From Eledone cirrhosa (Eukaryota), in NCBI GenBank assembly GCA_964016885.1, contig OZ024741.1, positions 221,278,001-221,342,000 of the forward strand: a stretch of DNA of 64,000 nucleotides. Direction: 5' to 3'. Of the stretch, positions 5,663 through 59,060 are shown one piece after another. The position numbers were made by a program, and so were the translations under genes. The notes under the pieces are model-generated. The model was not told the DNA's origin, made no database searches, and saw nothing but the letters and a program-made list of their open reading frames with translations. The number at the start of each line of letters is the position of its first letter. The stretch's first letter is position 1.

Positions 5663-8600
5663 TTTGGTCTGGTCTGATGATCAGCTCCTTTCCTCTGTCA
5701 GGAGATGTGACTGACACATAGTATCAACAATGGAAAGACCAATGGAAACATTGTTTCCTTGGTCTGATCTGATGATCGGCTCCTTTCCTCTGTCAGGAGA
5801 TGTGACTGACACATAGTATCAACAATGAAACATTGTTTCCTTGGTCTGATCTGATGATCAGTTCATTTCTTCTGTCAGGAGATGTGACTGACACATAGTA
5901 TGAACAATGGAAACATTGTTTCCTTGGTCTGATCTGGTGATCAGCTCCTTTATTCTGTCAGGAGATGTGACTGACACATAGTATCAACAATGGAAACATT
6001 GTTTCCTTGGTCTGATCTGATGATCAGCTCCTTTCTTCTGTCAGGAGATGTGACTGACACATAGTATCAACAATGAAACATTGTTTCCTTGGTCTGATCT
6101 GATGATCAGCTCCTTTCTTCTGTCAGGAGATGTGACTGACACATAGTATCAACAATGGAAACATTGTTTCCTTGGTCTGATCTGATGATCAGCTCCTTTC
6201 TTCTGTCAGGAGATGTGACAGACACATAGTATCAACAATGGAAATATTGTTTCCTTGATCTGATCTGATGATCAGCTCCTTTATTCTGTCAGGAGATGTG
6301 ACTGACACATAGTATCAACAATGGAAACATTGTTTCCTTGGTCTGATCTGATGATCAGCTCCTTTCTTCTGTCAGGAGATGTGACTGACACATAGTATCA
6401 ACAATGAAACATTGTTTCCATGGTCTGATCTGATGATCAGTTCATTTCTTCTGTCAGGAGATGTGACTGACACATAGTATGAACAATGGAAACATTGTTT
6501 CCTTGGTCTGATCTGGTGATCAGCTCCTTTCTTCTGTCAGGAGATGTGACTGACACATAGTATCAACAATGGAATAATTGTTTCCTTGGTCTGATCTGAT
6601 GATCAGCTCCTTTCTTCTGTCAGGAGATGTGACTGACACATAGTATCAACAATGGAAACATTGTTTCCTTGGTCTGATCTGATGATCAGCTCCTTTCTTC
6701 TGTCAGGAGATGTGACTGACACATAGTATCAACAATGGAAACATTGTTTCCTTGGTCTGATCTGATGATCAGCTCCTTTCTTCTGTCAGGAGATGTGACT
6801 GACACATAGTATCAACAATGGAAACATTGTTTCCTTGGTCTGATCTGATGATCAGCTCCTTTCTTCTGTCAGGAGATGTGACTGACACATAGTATCAACA
6901 ATGGAAACATTGTTTCCTTGGTCTGATCTGATGATCAGCTCCTTTCTTCTGTCAGGAGATGTGACTGACACATAGTATCAACAATGGAAACATTGTTTCC
7001 TTGGTCTGATCTGATGATCAGCTCCTTTCTTCTGTCAGGAGATGTGACTGACACATAGTATCAACAATGGAAACATTGTTTCCTTGGTCTGATCTGATGA
7101 TCAGCTCCTTTCTTCTGTCAGGAGATGTGACTGACACATAGTATCAACAATGGAAACATTGTTTCCTTGGTCTGATCTGATGATCAGCTCCTTTCTTCTG
7201 TCAGGAGATGTGACTGACACATAGTATCAACAATGGAATAATTGTTTCCTTGGTCTGATCTGATGATCAGCTCCTTTCTTCTGTCAGGAGATGTGACTGA
7301 CACATAGTATCAACAATGGAAACATTGTTTCCTTGGTCTGATCTGATGATCAGCTCCTTTCTTCTGTCAGGAGATGTGACTGACACATAGTATCAACAAT
7401 GGAAACATTGTTTCCTTGGTCTGATCTGATGATCAGCTCCTTTCTTCTGTCAGGAGATGTGACTGACACATAGTATCAACAATGGAATAATTGTTTCCTT
7501 GGTCTGATCTGATGATCAGCTCCTTTCTTCTGTCAGGAGATGTGACTGACACATAGTATCAACAATGAAACATTGTTTCCATGGTCTGATCTGATGATCA
7601 GCTCCTTTCTTCTGTCAGGAGATGTGACTGACACATAGTATCAACAATGGAATAATTGTTTCCTTGGTCTGATCTGATGATCAGCTCCTTTCTTCTGTCA
7701 GGAGATGTGACTGACACATAGTATCAACAATGGAAACATTGTTTCCTTGGTCTGATCTGATGATCAGCTCCTTTCTTCTGTCAGGAGATGTGACTGACAC
7801 ATAGTATCAACAATGGAATAATTGTTTCCTTGGTCTGATCTGATGATCAGCTCCTTTCTTCTGTCAGGAGATGTGACTGACACATAGTATCAACAATGAA
7901 ACATTGTTTCCATGGTCTGATCTGATGATCAGCTCCTTTCTTCTGTCAGGAGATGTGACTGACACATAGTATCAACAATGGAATAATTGTTTCCTTGGTC
8001 TGATCTGATGATCAGCTCCTTTCTTCTGTCAGGAGATGTGACTGACACATAGTATCAACAATGGAAACATTGTTTCCTTGGTCTGATCTGATGATCAGCT
8101 CCTTTCTTCTGTCAGGAGATGTGACTGACACATAGTATCAACAATGAAACATTGTTTCCATGGTCTGATCTGATGATCAGCTCCTTTCTTCTGTCAGGAG
8201 ATGTGACTGACACATAGTATCAACAATGGAATAATTGTTTCCTTGGTCTGATCTGATGATCAGCTCCTTTCTTCTGTCAGGAGATGTGACTGACACATAG
8301 TATCAACAATGGAAACATTGTTTCCTTGGTCTGATCTGATGATCAGCTCCTTTCTTCTGTCAGGAGATGTGACTGACACATAGTATCAACAATGGAATAA
8401 TTGTTTCCATGGTCTGATCTGATGATCAGCTCCTTTCCTCTGTCAGGAGATGTGACTGACACATAGTATCAACAATGGAATAATTGTTTCCTTGGTCTGA
8501 TCTGATGATCAGCTCCTTTCTTCTGTCAGGAGATGTGACTGACACATAGTATCAACAATGGAATAATTGTTTCCTTGGTCTGATCTGATGATCAGCTCCT

Positions 8601-9602
8601 TTCTTCTGTCAGGAGATGTGACTGACACATAGTATCAACAATGGAAACATTGTTTCCTTGGTCTGATCTGATGATCAGCTCCTTTCTTCTGTCAGGAGAT
8701 GTGACTGACACATAGTATCAGCAATGGAATAATTGTTTCCTTGGTATGATGTGATGATCCGCTCCTTTCCTCTGTCAGGAGATGTGACTGACACATAGTA
8801 TCAACAATGGAAACATTGTTTCCTTGGTCTGATCTGATGATCAGCTCCTTTCTTCTGTCAGGAGATGTGACTGACACATAGTATCAACAATGAAATATTG
8901 TTGTTTCCTTGATCTGATCTGATGATCAGCTCCTTTCTTCTGTCAGGAGATGTGACTGACACATAGTATCAACAATGAAATATTGTTGTTTCCTTGATCT
9001 GATCTGATGATCAGCTCCTTTCTTCTGTCAGGAGATGTGACTGACACATAGTATCAACAATGAAACATTGTTTCCATGGTCTGATCTGATGATCAGCTCC
9101 TTTCTTCTGTCAGGAGATGTGACTGACACATAGTATCAACAATGAAACATTGTTTCCTTGGTCTGATCTGATGATCAGCTCCTTTCTTCTGTCAGGAGAT
9201 GTGACTGACACATAGTATCAACAATGGAATAATTGTTTCCTTGGTCTGATCTGATGATCAGCTCCTTTCTTCTGTCAGGAGATGTGACTGACACATAGTA
9301 TCAACAATGGAAGAATTGTTTCCTTGGTCTGATCTGATGATCAGCTCCTTTCTTCTGTCAGGAGATGTGACTGACACATAGTATCAACAATGGAAACATT
9401 GTTTCCTTGGTCTGATCTGATGATCAGCTCCTTTCTTCTGTCAGGAGATGTGACTGACACATAGTATCAACAATGGAAACATTGTTTCCTTGGTCTGATC
9501 TGATGATCAGCTCCTTTCTTCTGTCAGGAGATGTGACTGACACATAGTATCAACAATGGAAACATTGTTTCCTTGGTCTGATCTGATGATCAGCTCCTTT
9601 CT
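5663..9602. repeat. 83-bp tandem minisatellite, about 47 copies
   Basis: Unit TGATGATCAGCTCCTTTCTTCTGTCAGGAGATGTGACTGACACATAGTATCAACAATGGAAACATTGTTTCCTTGGTCTGATC. Period checked at 6661 versus 6744. Confidence 0.97.
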
Positions 9603-10022
9603 TTTTATTTATTTCTTCCCTATGTTACACATGATTAAAGCCATTAGTTACAGTTTTCTGTAGGATTAATCATTGATTCACTGTATATAGGATGGTGTGT
9701 GTGATGCTGGTGGTTGTGGTGCTGGTTGATGTTGTGGCAGTGGTGATGGTGTTGGTTGTGGTGGTGTAGGTGGTGGTTTTCATGGTGGTGGCGGTGGTGG
9801 TGTTCGTGGTGGTGGCGGTGGTGGTGGTTGGTATGTTGATGGCTGTGGTAGTCAGGGCAGCAGCAGTGGTGAAGGTAGTGATGATGCCAAGGATAGTGGT
9901 GGAGGAGTGTGCTCGTGGTGATGGTCGTGGTGGAGGAGTGCACGCATGGTGATGGTCGTGGTGGTGATAGTGATCACCTGCTTTGTGTGTATCGCTGTGT
10001 TTGTGTATATGTGTATATATAC

Positions 10023-41019: not shown

Positions 41020-44000
41020 TCTGTATCTCTGTGTGATTGTGTCTGTATGTATGTGTGTGTATCTCTGTAGCAGTATGTGTTTCTGTGATTGTGTCTGTAT
41101 GTATGTGTGTGTATATCTCTGTGGCAGTATGTGTTTGTGTGATTGTGTCTGTATGTATGTGTGTGTATCTCTGTAGCAGTATGTGTTTGTGTGGCTGTCT
41201 GTATGTATGTGTGTGTATCTCTGTAGCAGTATGTGTTTCTGTGATTGTGTCTGTATGTATGTGTGTGTATATCTCTGTGGCAGTATGTGTTTGTGTGATT
41301 GTGTCTGTATGTATGTGTCTGTATCTCTGTGGCAGTATGTGTTTGTGTGGCTGTCTGTATGTATGTGTGTGTATCTCTGGTCAGTATGTGTTTGTGTGAT
41401 TGTGTCTGTATGTATGTGTGTGTATCTCTGTGGCAGTATGTGTTTGTGTGATTGTGTCTGTATGTATGTGTGTGTATCTCTGTAGCAGTATGTGTTTGTG
41501 TGGCTGTCTGTATGTATGTGTGTGTATCTCTGTAGCAGTATGTGTTTCTGTGATTGTGTCTGTATGTATGTGTGTGTATCTCTGTAGTAGTATGTGTTTG
41601 TGTGATTGTGTCTGTATGTATGTGTCTGTATCTCTGTGGCAGTATGTGTTTGTGTGGCTGTCTGTATGTATGTGTGTGTATCTCTGTGGCAGTATGTGTT
41701 TGTGTGATTGTGTCTGTATGTATGTGTGTGTGTATCTCTGTGGCAGTATGTGTTTGTGTGATTGTGTCTGTATGTATGTGTGTGTATCTCTGTGGCAGTA
41801 TGTGTTTGTGTGATTGTGTCTGTATGTATGTGTGTGTATCTCTGTAGTAGTATGTGTTTGTGTGATTGTGTCTGTATGTATGTGTGTGTATCTCTGTAGC
41901 AGTATGTGCTTGTGTGATTGTGTCTGTATGTATGTCTGTGTATCTCTGTAGTAGTATGTGTTTGTGTGATTGTGTCTGTATGTATGTGTGTGTATCTCTG
42001 TAGTAGTATGTGTTTGTGTGATTGTGTCTGTATGTATGTGTGTGTATCTCTGTGGTAGTATGTGTTTGTGTGATTGTGTCTGTATGTGTGTGTCTGTATC
42101 TCTGTGGCAGTATGTGTTTGTGTGATTGTGTCTGTATGTATGTATGTGTATCTCTGTGGCAGTATGTGTTTGTGTGATTGTGTCTGTATGTATGTGTGTA
42201 TCTCTGGTCAGTATGTGTTTGTGTGATTGTGTCTGTATGTATGTGTGTGTATCTCTGTGGCAGTATGTGTTTGTGTGATTGTGTCTGTATGTATGTGTGT
42301 GTATCTCTGGTCAGTATGTGTTTGTGTGATTGTGTATGTATGTATGTGTGTGTATCTCTGTGGCAGTATGTGTTTGTGTGATTGTGTCTGTATGTATGTG
42401 TGTGTATCTCTGTGGCAGTATGTGTTTGTGTGATTGTGTCTGTATGTATGTGTGTGTATCTCTGTGGCAGTATGTGTTTGTGTGATTGTGTCTGTATGTG
42501 TGTGTCTGTATCTCTGTGGCAGTATGTGTTTGTGTGATTGTGTCTGTATGTATGTGTGTGTATCTCTGTGGCAGTATGTGTTTGTGTGATTGTGTCTGTA
42601 TGTGTGTGTCTGTATCTCTGGTCAGTATGTGTTTGTGTGATTGTGTATGTATGTGTGTGTATCTCTGTGGCAGTATGTGTTTGTGTGATTGTGTCTGTAT
42701 GTATGTGTGTGTATCTCTGTGGCAGTATGTGTTTGTGTGATTGTGTCTGTATGTGTGTGTCTGTATCTCTGTGGCAGTATGTGTTTGTGTGATTGTGTCT
42801 GTATGTATGTGTGTGTATCTCTGTGGCAGTATGTGTTTGTGTGGTTGTGTCTGTATGTATGTGTGTGTATCTCTGTGGCAGTATGTGTTTGTGTGATTGT
42901 GTCTGTATGTGTGTGTCTGTATCTCTGTGGCAGTATGTGTTTGTGTGGCTGTCTGTATGTATGTGTGTGTATCTCTGTAGTAGTATGTGTTTGTGTGATT
43001 GTGTCTGTATGTATGTGTGTGTATCTCTGTGGCAGTATGTGTTTGTGTGATTGTGTCTGTATGTATGTGTGTGTATCTCTGTGGCAGTATGTGTTTGTGT
43101 GATTGTGTCTGTATGTATGTGTGTGTATCTCTGTAGCAGTATGTGTTTGTGTGATTGTGTCTGTATGTATGTGTGTGTATCTCTGTGGCAGTATGTGTTT
43201 GTGTGATTGTATCTGTATGTATGTGTGTGTGTCTCTGTGGCAGTATGTGTTTGTGTGATTGTGTCTGTATGTATGTGTGTGTATCTCTGTGGCAGTATGT
43301 GTTTGTGTGATTGTGTCTGTATGTATGTGTGTGTATCTCTGTGGCAGTATGTGTTTGTGTGATTGTGTCTGTATGTATGTGTGTGTATCTCTGGTCAGTA
43401 TGTGTTTGTGTGATTGTGTCTGTATGTATGTGTGTGTATCTCTGTGGCAGTATGTGTTTGTGTGATTGTGTCTGTATGTATGTGTGTGTATCTCTGGTCA
43501 GTATGTGTTTGTGTGATTGTGTCTGTATGTATGTGTGTGTATCTCTGGTCAGTATGTGTTTGTGTGATTGTGTCTGTATGTATGTGTGTGTATCTCTGGT
43601 CAGTATGTGTTTGTGTGATTGTGTATGTATGTATGTGTGTGTATCTCTGTGGCAGTATGTGTTTGTGTGATTGTGTCTGTATGTATGTGTGTGTATCTCT
43701 GTGGCAGTATGTGTTTGTGTGATTGTGTCTGTATGTATGTGTGTGTATCTCTGTGGCAGTATGTGTTTGTGTGATTGTGTCTGTATGTGTGTGTCTGTAT
43801 CTCTGTGGCAGTATGTGTTTGTGTGATTGTGTCTGTATGTATGTGTGTGTATCTCTGTGGCAGTATGTGTTTGTGTGATTGTGTCTGTATGTATGTGTGT
43901 GTATCTCTGTGGCAGTATGTGTTTGTGTGATTGTGTCTGTATGTGTGTGTCTGTATCTCTGTGGCAGTATGTGTTTGTGTGGCTGTCTGTATGTATGTGT

Positions 44001-44235
44001 GTGTATCTCTGGTCAGTATGTGTTTGTGTGATTGTGTCTGTATGTATGTGTGTGTATCTCTGGTCAGTATGTGTTTGTGTGATTGTGTCTGTATGTATGT
44101 GTGTGTATCTCTGGTCAGTATGTGTTTGTGTGATTGTGTCTGTATGTATGTGTGTGTATCTCTGTGGCAGTATGTGTCTGTATGTATGTGTGTGTATCTC
44201 TGTGGCAGTATGTGTTTGTGTGGCTGTCTGTATGT
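41020..44235. repeat. ~52-bp GT-rich minisatellite
   Basis: Unit GTATCTCTGTGGCAGTATGTGTTTGTGTGATTGTGTCTGTATGTATGTGTGT. Confidence 0.95.
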
Positions 44236-44407: not shown

Positions 44408-44440
<33 letters not shown>

Positions 44441-44448
<8 letters not shown>

Positions 44449-45706
44449 GATCGAGTATCGAAAAATCGGCGCACGAGTTCACGATAAACGAAATTCGATA
44501 TGAGCGGCAGAGGGCTCAATAATTCAGATGAATCAGAGCTATAACTATCGTTAAAATACCGTCACATATAGAACAAGTCTACAATCAACCATACGATTTA
44601 AAATCGATAAAGGAAGATTCGGGCCAAACAGATAAAAAATATCAATAAAACAATACGTCAATAATTTAAATGAATGTAAAATCATACCCGGACCCACTAG
44701 AAAGGTGTTAAATCTAGCTTCATGGGTTTCTGTAAATCCTTAGACTGTACTCTATCAGCTCACATATAAATATAAAAGCCTACTAGAATAAGTGGAACGG
44801 AGTTTACGTTGTCAACGAGTTTTTTCCTGGCGGCAGAGGAGTCAACTAGCGGTGAAAAACGCACATGGCATTAGACAAGGGAGATGACCCCTATATCCGC
44901 GAAAACAATTCGAGTGAATGTGGAAATACACATATCGAATTAGAGTGCTCAATAGACATGTTAAAATAAAACAAAAGCTATTCATCACTCAATAGAATCG
45001 ACAAAAAATGAGCAATAAAATTAACTGGTGGATAGCTATGTCCAGAGCTAAATATATTAGAAAGATCGAGTATCGAAAAATCGGCGCACGAGTTCACGAT
45101 AAACGAAATTCGATATGAGCGGCAGAGGGCTCAATAATTCAGATGAATCAGAGCTATAACTATCGTTAAAATACCGTCACATATAGAACAAGTCTACAAT
45201 CAACCATACGATTTAAAATCGATAAAGGAAGATTCGGGCCAAACAGATAAAAAATATCAATAAAACAATACGTCAATAATTTAAATGAATGTAAAATCAT
45301 ACCCGGACCCACTAGAAAGGTGTTAAATCTAGCTTCATGGGTTTCTGTAAATCCTTAGACTGTACTCTATCAGCTCACATATAAATATAAAAGCCTACTA
45401 GAATAAGTGGAACGGAGTTTACGTTGTCAACGAGTTTTTTCCTGGCGGCAGAGGAGTCAACTAGCGGTGAAAAACGCACATGGCATTAGACAAGGGAGAT
45501 GACCCCTATATCCGCGAAAACAATTCGAGTGAATGTGGAAATACACATATCGAATTAGAGTGCTCAATAGACATGTTAAAATAAAACAAAAGCTATTCAT
45601 CACTCAATAGAATCGACAAAAAATGAGCAATAAAATTAACTGGTGGATAGCTATGTCCAGAGCTAAATATATTAGAAAGATCGAGTATCGAAAAATCGGC
45701 GCACGA
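44441..45706. repeat. 615-bp unit x2 plus 36 bp (family A), inserted in (TA)n
   Basis: ATTAGAAAGATCGAG at 44441, 45056 and 45671. Confidence 0.93.
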
Positions 45707-45730
45707 TATATATATATATATATATATATA

Positions 45731-46536
45731 AACAAACATAAATTATTGAGATTCGCATTTCGGCCCAAGAAATAACGAAAAACAACCTCCGAGATGTGAG
45801 GCAAGTGCTCAATGATTCAGATGAACCAGAGCTATAGCAAACGTTAAAGGCCAAACACACTGAGACGATGGTTAAGCAATCATTTGCATAGCCAAAAAAA
45901 AAAAAAAAAAAAATAACGATCAAGTAATTCGGGTATTGAAAATTTACCCGGACCTCTGGAAGGTTGGTAAAATCCAGTATTTGGGTTTCTGCGGCTTCTA
46001 AATCAAGTACCGTCCGCTTACATAAATAATGTCAGGCTTCTGGTAAGATGATTGAACAAGGAAGCCACTTTCTCAACAGGTTTTAGTTCAATGTTAATAC
46101 AAGGACTGACTATTGCTGACTCCATGTGGGGATCGGCAAGGGGGGCAGCCCCTATATCAGGCGAATAAATTCAGTTGTGTATATTTTTGCAAGAATGCAA
46201 AAACATCACAAATCGAATAGAGTTCTCAACAGAAGGGTTAAAATTAACATAAGCTATTCATCAGTCAATAGAATCAACTAAAAAATCAAGAAAATTAACT
46301 GGTCAATAGCTAGAGTCTAGAGATAAATACAAACATAAATTATCGAGATTCGCATTTCGGACCACAAAATAACGAAAAACAGCCTCCGAGATGTGAGGCA
46401 AGTGCTCAATGATTCAGATGAACCAGAGCTATAACAAACGTTAAAGGCCAAACACACTGAGACGATGGTTAAACAATCATTCGCATAGCCAAAAAAAAAA
46501 CAAAAAAAAAAAAACGATAAAGTAATTCCGGTATTG

Positions 46537-46539
<3 letters not shown>
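45731..46539. repeat. 597-bp unit plus ~210 bp (family B, divergent homolog of A), inserted in (TA)n
   Basis: ACAAACATAAATTAT at 45732 and 46329. Seven collinear blocks are shared with family A. Confidence 0.9.
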
Positions 46540-46613
<74 letters not shown>

Positions 46614-46663
46614 TATACATATATATATATATACATAATACATATACATATATATATATATAC

Positions 46664-46694
<31 letters not shown>

Positions 46695-46695
<1 letters not shown>

Positions 46696-47311
46696 AAGTA
46701 TGTATACGTACATACATATATGTGTACAGACGTACAGTGGTATGTATATATATATATATACATACATGCACACATATATACATGTACGTATGGGTTAACT
46801 GAACATTTATTATAATGCTCGGTTTACCCGTAAACAAACAGCCCGAATTACGCCGTACAGTGTTCAGGCAACGATCGTCGCCCTTTTGTTCAACACTGAC
46901 ACAGGAACGATGTACTAGTTTCAAGCTTATTAGCTATCGTCAACATCGTATACCTTTCTGTCAGATTATTGAACGTTTGAAAGTATGTACTTTCCTTATG
47001 CATATTAACGGCTGAGCAGCCTATTCTGCATATCGAGTGAGTTAGTCGGTAAACCCATACCGACTAACTTAGTGACTTAGTCGGTAAACTTACCAACTAA
47101 CTCACTCGATATGCAGATTAGGCTGCTCAGCCGTTAATATGCATAAGGAAAGTATATACTTTCAAACGTTCAATAATATATATACGTTCAATATATATAT
47201 ACATACTACTGTACGTCTGTACACATATATGTATGTACGTATACATACTTGTATTTAAGTATCAGCCGTACTGAGAGTGAGAAATGAAATTTCGTTTCAT
47301 TCTTTTCCATT
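46695..47311. mobile_element. Second copy of the 410-bp hammerhead element, with inversion
   Basis: 46695-47050 matches 4720-5046. 47090-47311 is inverted and ends TTTTCCATTTA|TATA, the same terminus as 4659. Confidence 0.8.
46908..46948 (-). ncRNA. Type I hammerhead motif (C3U in this copy, perfect helix I)
   Basis: cgatg UUGACGA u AGCU aaua AGCU u GAAA CUAG UA caucg. Confidence 0.75.
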
Positions 47312-47327
47312 TATATATATATATATT

Positions 47328-49257
47328 GAAGACAGGGAAGGCAACCGGTCCATCGGGTATAGCTGCCGAGATGCTGAAGGCATCTGGGTCTGTAGGTCAC
47401 ACCATAACCACACGTATTGTTAACCAGGTAATACTAGGTGTCATACCAAAGGATTGGTGCAGTAGCATCATTGTCAACTGCTACAAAGGTAAAGGTGATG
47501 CACTAGATAGAGGAAACTATAGAGGTATAAAGCTGATGGACCAGGTCATGAAAATAACAGAAAGAGTTATAGCACAGTTTATTAGGGACCTGGTGAAACT
47601 AGATGAGATGCAATTTGGGTTTGTGCCAGGAAGAGGCACCACTGATGCCCTCTTCCTTGTGAGGCAGTTACAGGAAAAGTACCTAGCTAAAAGTAAGCTG
47701 CTCTACCTGGCATTCGTCGATCATGAGAAAGCCTTTGACAGAGTTCCACGTGCTATAATCTGGTGGGCTCTTAGAAAACTAGGAGTAGATGAATGGCTTG
47801 TGAAAGCTGTAAAAGCCATGTAATGGGGAGCAGTCAGCAAAGTTAGGATTAGCAATGACTTTAGCGTACAGGTCAGTGTACACCAGGGCTCTGTTCTTAG
47901 CCCTCTCCTGTTCATCATAGTTCTGCAGGCAATAATGGAGGAGTTTAAGACCGGATGCCCATGGAAACTCCTGTATGCAGATGACCTCACACTTATAGCT
48001 GAATCTATGGTAGAACTAGAGAAGAAATTCCAAACTTGAAAGCAGGGACTAGAAAGAAAGGGTCTCAAAGTCAACCTGACAAAGACTAAGGTCCTTGTAA
48101 GTAGACGAGAAAACAGAACCCAGATTCCCTCAGGGAAATGGCCTTGCTCAGTATGTAGGAAAGGTGTAGGTAGGAACTGCATTCTCTGCCCCAAATGCAA
48201 ACAATGGGTACGCAAGAGATGTAGTGGAATCTCAGAAAGCTTAACTAAGAATGTAAGCTTCACATATAGCAGCTGTGTTGGGACAGCAAGCAGCAAACAG
48301 CCACAGGAAACAAGTACTACCAAACTCTGGGAGGGCTCTGTAGAAACAGTAGACAGCTTCTGCTACCTAGGTGACCGAATTAGCAGCGGAGGTGGGTGTT
48401 CGGAAAGTACAATAACTAGGGTAAGAACGGGATGGAAGAAGTTCAAGGAGCTACTGCCACTGCTAGCTGCAAAAGGCTTTTCCTTCAAAATGAAAGGCAG
48501 ACTGTATGGTGTGTGTATACGAACAGCAATGGTACATGGTAGTGAGACCTGGGCACTGTTTGTAGAAGACTTGCGTAGATTAGAAAGAAACGAAGCCTGC
48601 ATGCTCCGATGGATGTGTAATAGTAATATACATGAATAGCAAAGCATAAATGAATTGAGAGAGAGACTGAGCATAAGAGGAATCAAATAGTGTGTGCAGG
48701 AGAGGAGGTTGTGTTGGTATGGACATGTGATGCGTATGAAGGATGACAGCTGCATAAAAAGGTGTAGAGCACTAGAAGTCAATGGAAATCGCGGAGTGGG
48801 GAGACCCAAGAAGACCTGAGATGAGGTGATAAAAGCCGACCTTACCCAATTACACCTCTCAAAGGCGATGAGACACGACCGTGACCTCTGGCATCACACA
48901 GTAATATAGAAGACCCGACCCCCCACGGGTACAAGCCAAAGCTGAAGCATATAGATAATATGCCCCCACACCCTCCTACTGCAAAGTGGTCGTGGAGGTA
49001 CCACGGCAAAAAAGCACCCAGCCCACACTGTAAAGTGGTCGTGTAGGCGCCACAGAAAAAAGCACCCAGCACTCACTGTAAATGAGGTTGGTGTTAGGAA
49101 GGGCATCCAGTTGTAGAAATCAAGCCAGAATCAGTTCCCGTATGAGCAAGGCATGATCAGCCGACCAGACACTGCCCACAACAGGACAACCTGTCTAACC
49201 CATGCTAGCGTAGAAGAACGGATGTAAAACGGTGATGATGATGATGATGATGATGAT
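47328..49257 (+). mobile_element. RTE-clade LINE subfamily B, RT domain to 3' end, with stop codons
   Basis: KATGPSGI, NYRGIKL, QFGFVPGRGTTDA, DHEKAFDRV, HQGSVLSP, YADDL, YLG, HGSETW, (GAT)n tail. Confidence 0.95.
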
Positions 49258-55142: not shown

Positions 55143-58100
55143 TGAGAGATGGGGAGAGTGGGAGAGACAGAGGCAGTGACAGTGGGAGTTTGGTTCCTTT
55201 GTGTTCAGACCTGGTGTATATGAGAGATGGGGAGAGTGGGAGAGACAGAGGCAGTGACAGTGGGAGTTTGGTTCCTTTGTGTTCAGACCTGGTGTATATG
55301 AGAGATGGGGAGAGTGGGAGAGACAGAGGCAGTGACAGTGGGAGTTTGGTTCCTCTGTGTTCACACCTGGTGTATATGAGAGATGGGGAGAGTGGGAGAG
55401 ATAGAGGTAGTGACAGTGGGAGTTTGGTTCCTCTGTGTTCACACCTGGTGTATATGAGAGATGGGGAGAGTGGGAGAGATAGAGGTAGTGACAGTGGGAG
55501 TTTGGTTCCTCTGTGTTTAGACCTGGTGTATATGAGAGGTGGGGAGAGTGGGAGAGACAGAGGCAGTGACAGTGGGAGTTTGGTTCCTCTGTGTTCAGAC
55601 CTGGTGTATATGAGAGATGGGGAGAGTGGGAGAGACAGAGGTAGTGACAGTGGGAGTTTGGTTCCTCTGTGTTCAGACCTGGTGTATATGAGAGGTGGGG
55701 AGAGTGGGAGAGACAGAGGCAGTGACAGTGGGAGTTTGGTTCCTCTGTGTTCAGACCTGGTGTATATGAGAGATGGGGAGAGTGGGAGAGACAGAGGCAG
55801 TGACAGTGGGAGTTTGGTTCCTCTGTGTTTAGACCTGGTGTATATGAGAGATGGGGAGAGTGGGAGAGACAGAGGCAGTGACAGTGGGAGTTTGGTTCCT
55901 CTGTGTTCAGACCTGGTGTATATGAGAGGTGGGGAGAGTGGGAGAGACAGAGGCAGTGACAGTGGGAGTTTGGCTCCTCTGTGTTCAGACCTGGTGTATA
56001 TGAGAGGTGGGGAGAGTGGGAGAGACAGAGGCAGTGACAGTGGGAGTTTGGCTCCTCTGTGTTCAGACCTGGTGTATATGAGAGGTGGGGAGAGTGGGAG
56101 AGACAGAGGCAGTGACAGTGGGAGTTTGGTTCCTCTGTGTTCAGACCTGGTGTATATGATAGATGGGGAGAGTGGGAGAGACAGAGGCAGTGACAGTGGG
56201 AGTTTGGTTCCTCTGTGTTCAGACCTGGTGTATATGATAGATGGGGAGAGTGGGAGAGACAGAGGCAGTGACAGTGGGAGTTTGGTTCCTCTGTGTTCAC
56301 ACCTGGTGTATATGAGAGATGGGAGAGTGGGAGAGACAGAGGCAGTGACAGTGGGAGTTTGGTTCTTTTGTGTTCACACCTGGTGTATATGAGAGATGGG
56401 AGAGTAGGAGAGACAGAGGCAGTGACAGTGGGAGTTTGGCTCCTCTGTGTTCAGACCTGGTGTATATGAGAGGTGGGGAGAGTGGGAGAGACAGAGGTAG
56501 TCACAGTGGGAGTTTGGCTCCTCTGTGTTCAGACCTGGTGTATATGAGAGGTGGGGAGAGTGGGAGAGACAGAGGTAGTCACAGTGGGAGTTTAGCTCCT
56601 CTGTGTTCAGACCTGGTGTATATGATAGATGGGGAGAGTGGGAGAGACAGAGGTAGTGACAGTGGGAGTTTGGTTCCTTTGTGTTCACACCTGGTGTATA
56701 TGAGAGATGGGAGAGTGGGAGAGACAGAGGCAGTGACAGTGGGAGTTTGGCTCCTCTGTGTTCAGACCTGGTGTATATGAGAGGTGGGGAGAGTGGGAGA
56801 GACAGAGGTAGTCACAGTGGGAGTTTGGCTCCTCTGTGTTCAGACCTGGTGTATATGAGAGGTGGGGAGAGTGGGAGAGACAGAGGTAGTCACAGTGGGA
56901 GTTTGGCTCCTCTGTGTTCAGACCTGGTGTATATGATAGATGGGGAGAGTGGGAGAGACAGAGGTAGTGACAGTGGGAGTTTGGTTCCTTTGTGTTCACA
57001 CCTGGTGTATATGAGAGATGGGAGAGTGGGAGAGACAGAGGCAGTGACAGTGGGAGTTTGGCTCCTCTGTGTTCAGACCTGGTGTATATGAGAGGTGGGG
57101 AGAGTGGGAGAGACAGAGGTAGTCACAGTGGGAGTTTGGCTCCTCTGTGTTCAGACCTGGTGTATATGAGAGGTGGGGAGAGTGGGAGAGACAGAGGTAG
57201 TCACAGTGGGAGTTTGGCTCCTCTGTGTTCAGACCTGGTGTATATGAGAGATGGGGAGAGTGGAAGAGACAGAGGCAGTGACAGTGGGAGTTTGGCTCCT
57301 CTGTGTTCAGACCTGGTGTATATGAGAGATGGGGAGAGTGGGAGGGACAGAGGCAGTGACAGTGGGAGTTTGGTTCCTCTGTGTTCACACCTGGTGTATA
57401 TGAGAGATGGGGAGAGTGGGAGAGATAGAGGCAGTGACAGTGGGAGTTTGGTTCCTCTGTGTTCACACCTGGTGTATATGAGAGATGGGGAGAGTGGGTG
57501 AGATAGAGGCAGTGACAGTGGGAGTTTGGTTCCTCTGTGTTCAGACCTGGTGTATATGAGAGATGGGGAGAGTGGGAGAGGTAGAGGTAGTCACAGTGGG
57601 AGTTTGGTTCTTTTGTGTTCAGACCTGGTGTATATGAGAGATGGGGAGAGTGGGAGAGACAGAGGTAGTGACAGTGGGAGTTTGGTTCCTCTGTGTTCAC
57701 ACCTGGTGTATATGAGAGATGGGGAGAGTGGGAGAGACAGAGGCAGTGACAGTGGGAGTTTGGTTCTTTTGTGTTCACACCTGGTGTATATGAGAGATAG
57801 GGAGAGTGGGAGAGGCAGTGACAGTGGGAGTTTGGTTCCTCTGTGTTTAGACCTGGTGTATATGAGAGATGGGGAGAGTGGGAGAGACAGAGGCAGTGAC
57901 AGTGGGAGTTTGGTTCCTCTGTGTTCAGACCTGGTGTATATGAGAGATGGGGAGAGTGGGAGAGGCAGAGGCAGTGACAGTGGTAGTTTAGTTCCTCTGT
58001 GTTCACACCTGGTGTATATGAGAGAAGAGGAGAGTGGGAGAGACAGAGGCAGTGACAGTGGGAGTTTGGTTCCTCTGTGTTCAGACCTGGTGTATATGAG

Positions 58101-59015
58101 AGATGGGGAGAGTGGGAGAGACAGAGGCAGTGACAGTGGGAGTTTGGTTCCTCTGTGTTCACACCTGGTGTATATGAGAGATGGGGAGAGTGGGAGAGAT
58201 AGAGGCAGTGACAGTGGGAGTTTGGTTCCTCTGTGTTTAGACCTGGTGTATATGAGAGATCGGGAGAGTGGGAGAGACAGAGGTAGTGACAGTGGGGGTT
58301 TGGTTCCTCTGTGTTCACACCTGGTGTATATGAGAGATGGGGAGAGTGGGAGAGACAGAGGTAGTGACAGTGGGGGTTTGGTTCCTCTGTGTTGAGACCT
58401 GGTGTATATGAGAGATCGGGAGAGTGGGAGAGACAGAGGCAGTGACAGTGGGAGTTTGGTTCCTTTGTGTTCAGACCTGGAGTATATGAGAGATGGGGAG
58501 AGTGGGAGAGATAATGGCAGTGACAGTGGGAGTTTGGTTCCTCTGTGTTCAGACCTGGTATATATGAGAGATGGGGAGAGTAGGAGAGACAGAGGCAGTG
58601 ACAGTGGGAGTTTGGTTCCTTTGTTTTCAGACCTGGAGTATATGAGAGATGGGGAGAGTGGGAGAGATAGAGGCAGTGACAGTGGTAGTTTGGTTCCTCT
58701 GTGTTCAGACCTGGTGTATATGAGAGATGGGGAGAGTGGGAGAGATAGAGGCAGTGACAGTGGTAGTTTGGTTCCTCTGTGTTCAGACCTGGTGTATATG
58801 AGAGATGGGGAGAGTGGGAGAGATAGAGGCAGTGACAGTGGGAGTTTGGTTCCTTTGTGTTCAGACCTGGAGTATATGAGAGATGGGGAGAGTGGGAGAG
58901 ATAGAGGCAGTGACAGTGGGAGTTTGGCTCCTCTGTGTTTAGACCTGGAGTATATGAGAGATGGGGAGAGTGGGAGAGATAGAGGCAGTGACAGTGGGAG
59001 TTTGGTTCCTCTGTG
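55143..59015. repeat. 78-bp minisatellite, about 50 copies
   Basis: Unit GAGAGATGGGGAGAGTGGGAGAGACAGAGGCAGTGACAGTGGGAGTTTGGTTCCTCTGTGTTCAGACCTGGTGTATAT. Confidence 0.97.
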
Positions 59016-59060
59016 TACATGTGTGTGTGACTGATTTAATAGTAATATTTTTTCCATATA

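What the first reader, a model, noticed from the sequence alone, without database searches (positions are those of the whole stretch)
44441..46539. Two divergent ~600-bp non-coding units with covarying stems, more than unit length and a shared breakpoint: candidate new circular-template element
Seen: family A (615 bp x2 + 36) and family B (597 + ~210) sit side by side, each bounded by (TA)n, without a credible ORF or TIRs. Seven collinear blocks are conserved: GCTCAATRATTCAGATGAAYCAGAGCTATA; TACCCGGACC; TGGGTTTCTG; AAGGGG..CCCCTATATC; ATCGAAT(T)AGAGTKCTCAA; AAGCTATTCATCASTCAATAGAATC; AAAATTAACTGGT..ATAGCTA. One stem covaries (A CTAGA..TCTAG, B CTGGA..TCCAG) and the AGGGG..CCCCT hairpin keeps pairing with different loops. 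TTCATC..GAAT near the unit end can pair with ATTC-A-GATGAA near the unit start, across the monomer junction. Both inserts begin at the homologous position (after AGAG(C/A)TAAAT) and end at different points beyond one unit. Inference: target-primed copying of a circular or multimeric structured RNA (or ssDNA), like the neighbouring retrozyme-like elements but with no recognisable hammerhead, so possibly another ribozyme or processing signal.
Basis: partly seen in the sequence, partly recalled or inferred. Interest (0 to 1): 0.8.

Follow-up and report, generated by a model that had tools for sequence, protein, structure and literature searches.

The report
Hidden oversized hammerhead retrozyme family
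These 600-base repeats belong to a family of protein-less mobile elements with thousands of copies in (TA)n tracts of this animal genome; each unit carries an oversized hammerhead-shaped RNA motif that is predicted to cut itself, and the units are likely copied round and round from RNA circles by the enzymes of Penelope-like retrotransposons.

Summary
A (615 nt x2 + 36, identical) and B (597 + ~213) are two of about 20 families of one ~600-nt non-coding element. Copies have one fixed end at (TA)n, a scattered other end, and arrays of up to 26 near-identical units. It is disguised by a U3-A8 core, an extra A before G12 and hairpins inserted into helices II and III. A pattern for it gives 5,295 genomic matches against 11 in the control. 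The helices covary; a pseudoknot and a downstream blocking helix are also conserved. The fixed end lies 250 nt past the predicted cut site, and each array carries one haplotype, as expected of rolling-circle reverse transcription of one RNA circle. One twin-primed Penelope-like insertion switches onto B and back, which points to the mobiliser. Verdict: a new variant of animal non-LTR retrozymes. Cleavage and circular RNA are not shown, and about a quarter of motifs have a mismatched 3-8 pair.

The parts
44411..44442 (.). (TA)n target tract at the fixed end of A
   Evidence: same flank at 126 of 152 left ends
44441..45055 (-). Family A unit 1 (615 nt); RNA is the minus strand, its fixed 3' end at 44441 overlaps the target by ATATAT
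45056..45670 (-). Family A unit 2, identical to unit 1
45671..45706 (-). Family A partial third unit (36 nt), the variable 5'-truncated end
44686..44827 (-). Expanded type I hammerhead of A unit 1: helix I 44820-44816 with 44690-44686; core UUGACAA 44815-44809; C9a 44808; helix II 44807-44800 with 44739-44732; extra A 44731; GAAAC 44730-44726; GUC with C17 at 44691; predicted cut between 44691 and 44690; pseudoknot GGAA 44827-44824 with UUCC 44797-44794
44697..44717 (-).
44620..44624 (-). Blocking strand (GCCCG) that can pair with the 5 nt after the cut site instead of helix I
45301..45442 (-). Expanded hammerhead of A unit 2 (C17 at 45306)
45706..45730 (.). (TA)n tract between A and B: B's target tract, into which A likely inserted later
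   Evidence: A units identical, B units 94% alike
45730..46326 (-). Family B unit 1 (597 nt here because of an expanded A run; other copies about 585)
45946..46088 (-). Expanded hammerhead of B: core UUGAGAA 46076-46070, G12 at 45989, C17 at 45951
45930..45934 (-). Blocking strand of B (ACCCG)
46327..46539 (-). Family B partial second unit, variable end
46539..46694 (.). (TA)n tract at the variable end of B

Best explanation
This is a non-coding element that inserts into (TA)n tracts as phased tandem copies and carries an enlarged type I hammerhead motif on its minus strand; it likely cuts itself out of tandem transcripts, likely closes into a ~600-nt RNA circle, and is likely copied back into DNA by a Penelope-like reverse transcriptase rolling round that circle. 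Shown: the phased arrays, the (TA)n target, the conserved core and covarying helices, one haplotype per array, and chimeras with Penelope-like elements (PLEs). Inferred steps: (1) an array of more than one unit is transcribed, probably by Pol II or read-through, since the RNA has 3-14 U4+ runs and no conserved A/B boxes; (2) two successive hammerheads cut at GUC|C and release a monomer; (3) the ends are ligated; (4) a downstream strand then takes over the 3' side of helix I and keeps the circle uncut; (5) a PLE GIY-YIG nuclease nicks (TA)n, the 3' end pairs with the AU-rich site 250 nt past the cut, and the RT runs round the circle until it falls off at random; (6) older arrays collapse by recombination to 1.x units.
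For: Polarity: the minus strand folds better (z -2.83 vs -1.87; lower energy in 16 of 16 units folded as circles), and helices I and II hold 57 G-U against 11 A-C cells on that strand (summed). Core: in 28 rows G5, A6, A9, GAAAC and GUC are invariant at 62% mean column identity. In 30 old copies gathered by overall similarity, not by motif, U3 29/30, G5 30/30, A8 30/30, A9 30/30, G12 29/30, A13 and A14 30/30, C17 24/30. Helices: 92.0% of cells paired vs 87.6 +/- 0.7 shuffled (0/500), 32 double-changed cells vs 16; core-anchored helix II 171/196 vs 143 +/- 4 (0/2000). Genome count 5,295 vs 11 control. U3-A8 and an unpaired base after A9 are described in PLE hammerheads (PMC4209133); U3-A8 is described as active in vitro (PMC3088659). 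Circle: 36 arrays of family A with 2 or more full units carry 18 array-wide haplotypes, 21 are fully uniform, and a 26-unit array has two variants of its own in all 26 units. The RT reads through the cut site: none of 17 listed loci ending in the 30 nt around it stops there. Mobiliser: L150 reads TA - PLE2 3' end (cDNA sense) - B from mid-unit across the junction - PLE2 (cDNA sense) - PLE2 (sense) - TA. L107 joins a mid-unit start to PLE1; L060 and L096 are head-to-head pairs, a PLE hallmark (PMC8557442). PLE1 also ends 163 nt past its own hammerhead at an AAUAU site. Blocker: position 1.2 pairs G-C in 12 of 12 and A-U in 9 of 9 aligned rows; predicted pairing probability about 0.9 in the circle.
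Against: No cleavage or RNA data. The 3-8 pair is not strict: 1,187 of 5,295 U3 motifs have G8 and 85 have C3, mostly with A8 in one subfamily, so about 24% are mismatched, including the 26-unit array. The extra A before G12 is not among the natural variants in the passages I read. ViennaRNA forms helices II and III but not helix I in nascent fragments. Helix I covaries weakly (58/2000 shuffles reach it) and helix III is invariant, so uninformative. The number of pairs with double changes does not exceed shuffles (330/500), and the rows are related; the blocker's covariation may be one or two events. No sequence homology to PLE1 or PLE2 ends was found, and only one clean PLE-B-PLE chimera was seen among about 70 non-TA junctions. 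A ~60-unit array and an unplaced array have mixed units, so local amplification also happens.
Confidence: 0.8

Rival explanations
1. The hammerhead-shaped motif is slow or dead and serves only as a fold recognised by the PLE protein. Linear tandem transcripts (or template jumps on linear monomers) are copied, and long arrays grow afterwards by unequal crossing over.
For: About 24% of motifs have U.G or C.A at 3-8 and still spread. Helix I is not predicted to form. Mixed long arrays exist. Eight of nine Xenopus retrozyme dimers did not cleave in vitro (10.64898/2026.07.22.740005).
Against: The catalytic residues are the most conserved columns across families 46-93% identical. The youngest family has the longest uniform arrays while older ones mostly have 1-2 units, the reverse of growth with age. 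New variants appear in all units of an array at once.
Confidence: 0.12
2. The element is a viroid-like circular RNA that also replicates RNA-to-RNA, and the genomic copies are its fossil record written by PLE reverse transcriptases.
For: Deep radiation of same-size, ORF-less, fully structured families with no autonomous parent found. A blocking helix like those of viroids and plant retrozymes, which animal retrozymes mostly lack (PMC7229834).
Against: A hammerhead core was seen on one strand only. Structure is branched, not rod-like. Haplotypes form a nested series shared among genomic arrays, which DNA-RNA-DNA cycles explain. No relatives in viral or metagenome hits.
Confidence: 0.05
3. A non-autonomous rolling-circle DNA transposon (Helitron- or Replitron-like) with a fixed origin and failed termination.
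For: A fixed end, a variable end and tandem arrays are also expected of rolling-circle DNA transposition (recalled).
Against: G-U-rich folding on one strand and a hammerhead core. Template switches within PLE insertions and head-to-head pairs. Same target and end geometry as the PLEs.
Confidence: 0.03

Closest known systems
Animal non-LTR retrozymes (Cervera and de la Pena 2020, PMC7229834; Li et al. 2026, 10.64898/2026.07.22.740005)
   Same: Non-coding, low-GC tandem repeats with one type I hammerhead per unit, dispersed as monomers to multimers, co-existing with PLEs and proposed to move through RNA circles.
   Different: Unit about 600 nt (170-400 nt in the 2020 paper; 51-972 bp in the 2026 preprint). 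Hammerhead about 140 nt with hairpins inside helices II and III, U3-A8 core, extra A before G12, pseudoknot and a conserved blocking helix, which that paper says most animal retrozymes lack. No homology found to the two PLEs examined.
PLE hammerheads, including the U3-A8 variant of Schistosoma Cercyon elements (PMC4209133)
   Same: Type I order, unpaired base after A9, G10.1-C11.1, long helix II, U3-A8 core, fixed 3' end some way past the ribozyme.
   Different: Those are minimal motifs without a stable helix III that work as dimers. This one has a stable 3-4 bp helix III plus an inserted hairpin and is predicted to fold as a monomer.
Non-autonomous PLEs such as MRC1 of Chlamydomonas, and (TA)n-targeting Naiad, Hydra and Neptune PLEs (PMC8557442)
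   Same: 5' truncation, partial and multicopy head-to-tail tandems, inverted 5'-adjacent copies, microsatellite target.
   Different: No ORF; no shared 3' sequence with an autonomous family was found; Naiads and most Chlamys are described as lacking canonical hammerheads.
pDo500 satellite of Dolichopoda cave crickets (PMC2837043, search listing only)
   Same: A hammerhead-bearing animal repeat of similar size (about 500 bp by its name).
   Different: Described as satellite DNA; the present element is dispersed, phased and target-specific. Its hammerhead was not compared.

Membership tests
Type I hammerhead ribozyme | Order helix I - YUGANRA - helix II - GAAA - helix III - UH - helix I | tested here: met
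Type I hammerhead ribozyme | Three helices supported by compensatory changes | tested here: met
   helix II strongly, helix I weakly, helix III invariant
Type I hammerhead ribozyme | Watson-Crick pair between positions 3 and 8 | tested here: inconclusive
   U-A in 4,108 of 5,380 pattern matches, U.G in 1,187, C3 in 85 (mostly C.A)
Type I hammerhead ribozyme | Helix II closes directly on G12 | tested here: not met
   a conserved extra A lies between 11.1 and G12, opposite N9a (28 of 28, where the anchor required it; 29 of 30)
Type I hammerhead ribozyme | Tertiary contact between helices I and II | tested here: inconclusive
   4-bp pseudoknot, 89% of cells paired, only one-sided changes in the MAFFT columns; GAAC/GUUC, GGAC/GUCC and GGAA/UUCC seen by eye
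Type I hammerhead ribozyme | Score above an Rfam hammerhead model | tested here: not met
   no Rfam hit at gathering score in the window, no hammerhead at E up to 10 in the region
Type I hammerhead ribozyme | Site-specific self-cleavage | not testable with these tools
   needs in vitro transcription
Animal non-LTR retrozyme | Non-coding tandem repeat with a hammerhead in every unit | tested here: met
Animal non-LTR retrozyme | Expressed as circular RNA | tested here: inconclusive
   no RNA holder listed
Animal non-LTR retrozyme | Sequence homology to a PLE pseudo-LTR (Li et al. 2026) | tested here: not met
   none to PLE1 or PLE2; other PLE families of the genome were not examined
PLE-mobilised insertion | Fixed 3' end, 5' truncation, partial tandem, microsatellite target | tested here: met
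PLE-mobilised insertion | Inverted 5'-adjacent copy or co-insertion with PLE cDNA | tested here: met
   L096, L060, L107, L150; few cases
PLE-mobilised insertion | Target-site duplication | not testable with these tools
   hidden by the (TA)n target
Helitron / rolling-circle DNA element | Two defined termini (recalled) | tested here: not met
   only one end is fixed
Satellite DNA | Long local arrays without phased, target-specific ends | tested here: not met
   dispersed on many contigs, phased at (TA)n; two long mixed arrays are exceptions

The most novel reading that the evidence does not exclude
A long-lived lineage of ~600-nt self-cleaving circular RNAs with a hammerhead architecture that present descriptors cannot see (branched helices II and III, U3-A8, extra A, pseudoknot, on/off blocking helix) behaves as a viroid-like replicon in an animal. 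It borrows several PLE reverse transcriptases and perhaps also replicates as RNA, and similar hidden hammerheads explain other 'ribozyme-less' tandem retroelements.
Probability: 0.15. Interest if true: 0.85.

Novelty: new variant of a known kind. Interest (0 to 1): 0.62.

Why it matters
Mobilisation of animal retrozymes by PLEs through RNA circles is a proposal resting on co-occurrence and sequence likeness in the papers I read. This genome holds direct footprints: single-haplotype arrays up to 16 kb and a PLE insertion that switches onto the retrozyme and back, with very young PLEs and a very young retrozyme family side by side, so the cycle can be tested. The hammerhead itself is a natural experiment: over 5,000 copies in about 20 families show that large insertions, an extra core-flanking A and mismatched 3-8 pairs are tolerated. 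It also shows that Rfam and short-spacer descriptors miss abundant animal hammerheads.

Tried and rejected
Rfam: nothing at gathering score, only (TA)n noise at E up to 10. A canonical-core regex on the window missed the motif. Pile-up of truncated ends at the cut site: not seen in the first 100 rows of two searches (only the second window spans the site for most loci); one array ends exactly there (L079) and one a base short next to an assembly gap. Compact form of the same motif in the genome: 16 matches vs 19 control. Autonomous parent with the same hammerhead: not found in PLE1, PLE2 or next to the oldest family. Six short motifs gave only scattered, unrelated hits in the Craig et al. supplement, and the Octopus Naiad 3' ends read by eye did not resemble the element. 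Pfam named nothing in the PLE1 protein. RNA: no RNA holder listed. Run X2 (type not on record) holds A as one 645-nt contig, one unit plus 30, with no real cover of PLE2; a tandem array gives the same contig and holes prove nothing, so I do not count it. Pol III boxes: not conserved. L227 was a chance match of the pattern. One search used a mis-indexed structure (replaced); the nhmmer table is a stale file and was ignored. Earlier findings of the scan: none returned.

Full report
Observation. The window holds family A (44441-45706; period 615, 651 of 651 identical) and family B (45730-46539; period 597, second copy 94% alike), bounded by (TA)n tracts. They align collinearly at about 63%. The host genome is 3.0 Gb in 1,796 contigs; its repeat content reminded me of octopus, a recalled impression that I did not test.

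A large dispersed family. A has 560 first-look candidates, B 3,599, family D 4,557 and the oldest family 1,759 (lower bounds, 38-40 scored each). One 25-nt block has 2,188 exact matches against 0 in the control. Clustering 147 full monomers gave 22 representatives, 46-93% identical. All are about 560-650 nt and lack long ORFs. Of 152 left ends mapped, 128 lie within 25 nt of the unit start and 126 have a (TA)n flank; 174 right ends are spread over the whole unit and 106 have (TA)n. These loci are the best hits of searches, not a random sample.

Polarity. The minus strand folds at -145.3 kcal/mol (z -2.83, 0 of 20 shuffles as low), the plus strand at -122.7 (z -1.87, 1 of 20); 16 of 16 units fold lower on the minus strand. 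The U-rich composition of that strand favours this, so it is supporting evidence only. With the RNA on the minus strand the fixed end is the 3' end, as in target-primed reverse transcription.

The hidden hammerhead. On the minus strand each unit reads CCYG - YUGANRA - N - helix II with an inserted hairpin - A - GAAAC - helix III with an inserted hairpin - GUC - CRGG. This is type I order. I aligned 28 rows: 23 of the 29 cluster representatives (six near-duplicate or truncated ones dropped) plus window A, window B and three others. About half came from a pattern that required C3, so their 3-8 counts are biased. Mean column identity is 62%, yet G5, A6, A9, AGAAACC and GGUC are invariant. With the named structure 92.0% of cells pair against 87.6 +/- 0.7 in shuffles (0/500) and at most 44% when partners are slid; double-changed cells are 32 against 16, but the number of pairs with double changes (6) is no higher than shuffles. 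Anchored on the core, helix II pairs in 171 of 196 cells (shuffles 143 +/- 4, 0/2000), helix I in 134 of 140 (58/2000) and helix III is near-invariant. An unbiased set, 30 old copies taken by overall similarity, has U3 29/30, A8 30/30, G12 29/30 and C17 24/30. Genome-wide the pattern gives 5,295 matches with U3 (control 11), 1,187 of them with G8, and 85 with C3 (control 0; one of 18 fetched was chance). A compact version does not exist above chance. Rfam sees none of it. U3-A8 and the unpaired base after A9 are described for PLE hammerheads (PMC4209133, parts 1-2 of 4 read), and U3-A8 is called active in vitro, with pseudoknots between helices I and II common in other hammerheads (PMC3088659, passages and section 8). 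Against full activity: the extra A before G12, about 24% mismatched 3-8 pairs, and no helix I in predicted folds of nascent fragments.

Two further conserved pairings. A 4-bp pseudoknot joins the flank of helix I to the helix II insert (89% of cells). A strand 20-60 nt past the cut site pairs with the five bases after the cut (97 of 105 cells; position 1.2 is G-C in 12 rows and A-U in 9) and is predicted to replace helix I in the circle with probability near 0.9. It would be made only after the hammerhead, so it could allow cutting during transcription and block it afterwards (inference). Cervera and de la Pena note that most animal retrozyme circles lack such a block, unlike plant retrozymes and viroids (PMC7229834, passages and sections 14 and 17).

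Evidence for a circular template. The predicted cut (44691|44690) lies 250 nt from the fixed end, so insertions are permuted relative to a cleaved monomer, and the RT passes the cut site repeatedly: none of 17 listed loci ends there (first 100 of 509 rows). In 43 A-type arrays examined, 36 have two or more full units; 21 of these are fully uniform, most others have single-unit changes, and the array-wide variants define 18 haplotypes; lengths reach 13, 14, 16, 16, 18 and 26 units. The 26-unit array has two variants in every unit that the five other arrays of its lineage lack. Older families mostly show one to two units, the opposite of growth with age and compatible with collapse by recombination. 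Against a single cause: a ~60-unit array and an unplaced array have mixed units, and assembly could have smoothed units.

The mobiliser. Two very young PLEs are present: PLE1 (1,329-aa frame, 4,423-bp tandem unit) and PLE2 (784-aa frame plus an upstream ORF, 4,796-bp unit; 150 of 150 scored matches 100% identical). I call them Neptune-like from the motifs seen (RT, C-terminal GIY-YIG with an upstream CxxC finger) against the descriptions in PMC8557442 (passages, sections 6, 11, 20, supplement searches and part 24 of 59); Pfam gave PLE1 no name. Both end at AAUAU in (TA)n; PLE1 ends 163 nt past a minimal hammerhead. Locus L150 is a twin-primed PLE2 insertion whose left strand runs from the PLE2 3' end into B at mid-unit with no (TA)n, across B's junction, and back into PLE2. 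L107 joins a mid-unit start to PLE1; L060 is head-to-head with PLE1; L096 is head-to-head between families C and D. These are few cases, and I found no homology between the element and either PLE, unlike many Xenopus retrozymes (10.64898/2026.07.22.740005, parts 1-3 of 5 read, supplements not seen). The main partner is therefore not settled.

What is known. It works like an animal non-LTR retrozyme and meets the sequence-level tests; cleavage and circular RNA are untested. I found no description of this element or hammerhead form in searches; passages of an Octopus vulgaris repeat annotation (PMC13282606) do not mention it, and its library, Dfam, Repbase and the supplements of PMC7229834 were not seen and may hold it as an unclassified repeat. 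PMC7151607 (one passage) and PMC2837043 (listing) were used only for background.

Verdict. New variant of a known kind, interest 0.62. The element type is known; the hammerhead architecture, the blocking helix and the genomic footprints of rolling-circle copying by PLEs are what is new.

Noticed in passing
window 39920 (+), 63355 (-), 26277 (+): Hammerhead-core motifs (CTGATGA...GAAA) of other repeats; the first two look like PLE minimal hammerheads.
   Followed up: no
window 47281-48900: Broken LINE reverse-transcriptase fragment (Pfam RVT_1, E 4e-12).
   Followed up: partly
window 46790-47330: Another (TA)n-flanked repeat arranged as an inverted pair (arms about 46930-47060 and 47090-47180); related pieces flank several loci, likely a further twin-primed family.
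   Followed up: no
window 41030-44204, 5740-9603, 55143-59016: Minisatellites of 52, 83 and 78 bp.
   Followed up: no
L427-L428 (26-unit array); L278: All 26 units carry A8-to-G in the hammerhead core. In L278 and L427-8 one site varies in 5 of 13 and 5 of 26 units, which could be repeated miscopying of one template site or gene conversion.
   Followed up: partly
L165-L169, L178, L179, L184 left ends: Family D junctions often carry one or two extra copies of a 6-nt unit-end motif next to (TA)n, as if the RT primed, slipped and primed again.
   Followed up: no
L288:2858-2901: An A array continues directly into a short piece of a distant family in the same orientation, a likely switch between two retrozyme RNAs.
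   Followed up: partly
L141-L142; L186: Two very young autonomous PLEs with 19,244 and 17,863 first-look candidates; no hammerhead was found in the PLE2 3' region by a simple regex.
   Followed up: partly
PMC8557442 supplement, part 24: The published Octopus Naiad 3' ends hold GAAAC, then a possible UH, then CUGAUGA, i.e. hammerhead core halves in permuted order; possibly another overlooked hammerhead.
   Followed up: no
L429-L430 (about 38 kb): About 60 mixed units of one family, still bounded by a phased start and a truncated end at (TA)n: a retrozyme turning into a satellite.
   Followed up: partly
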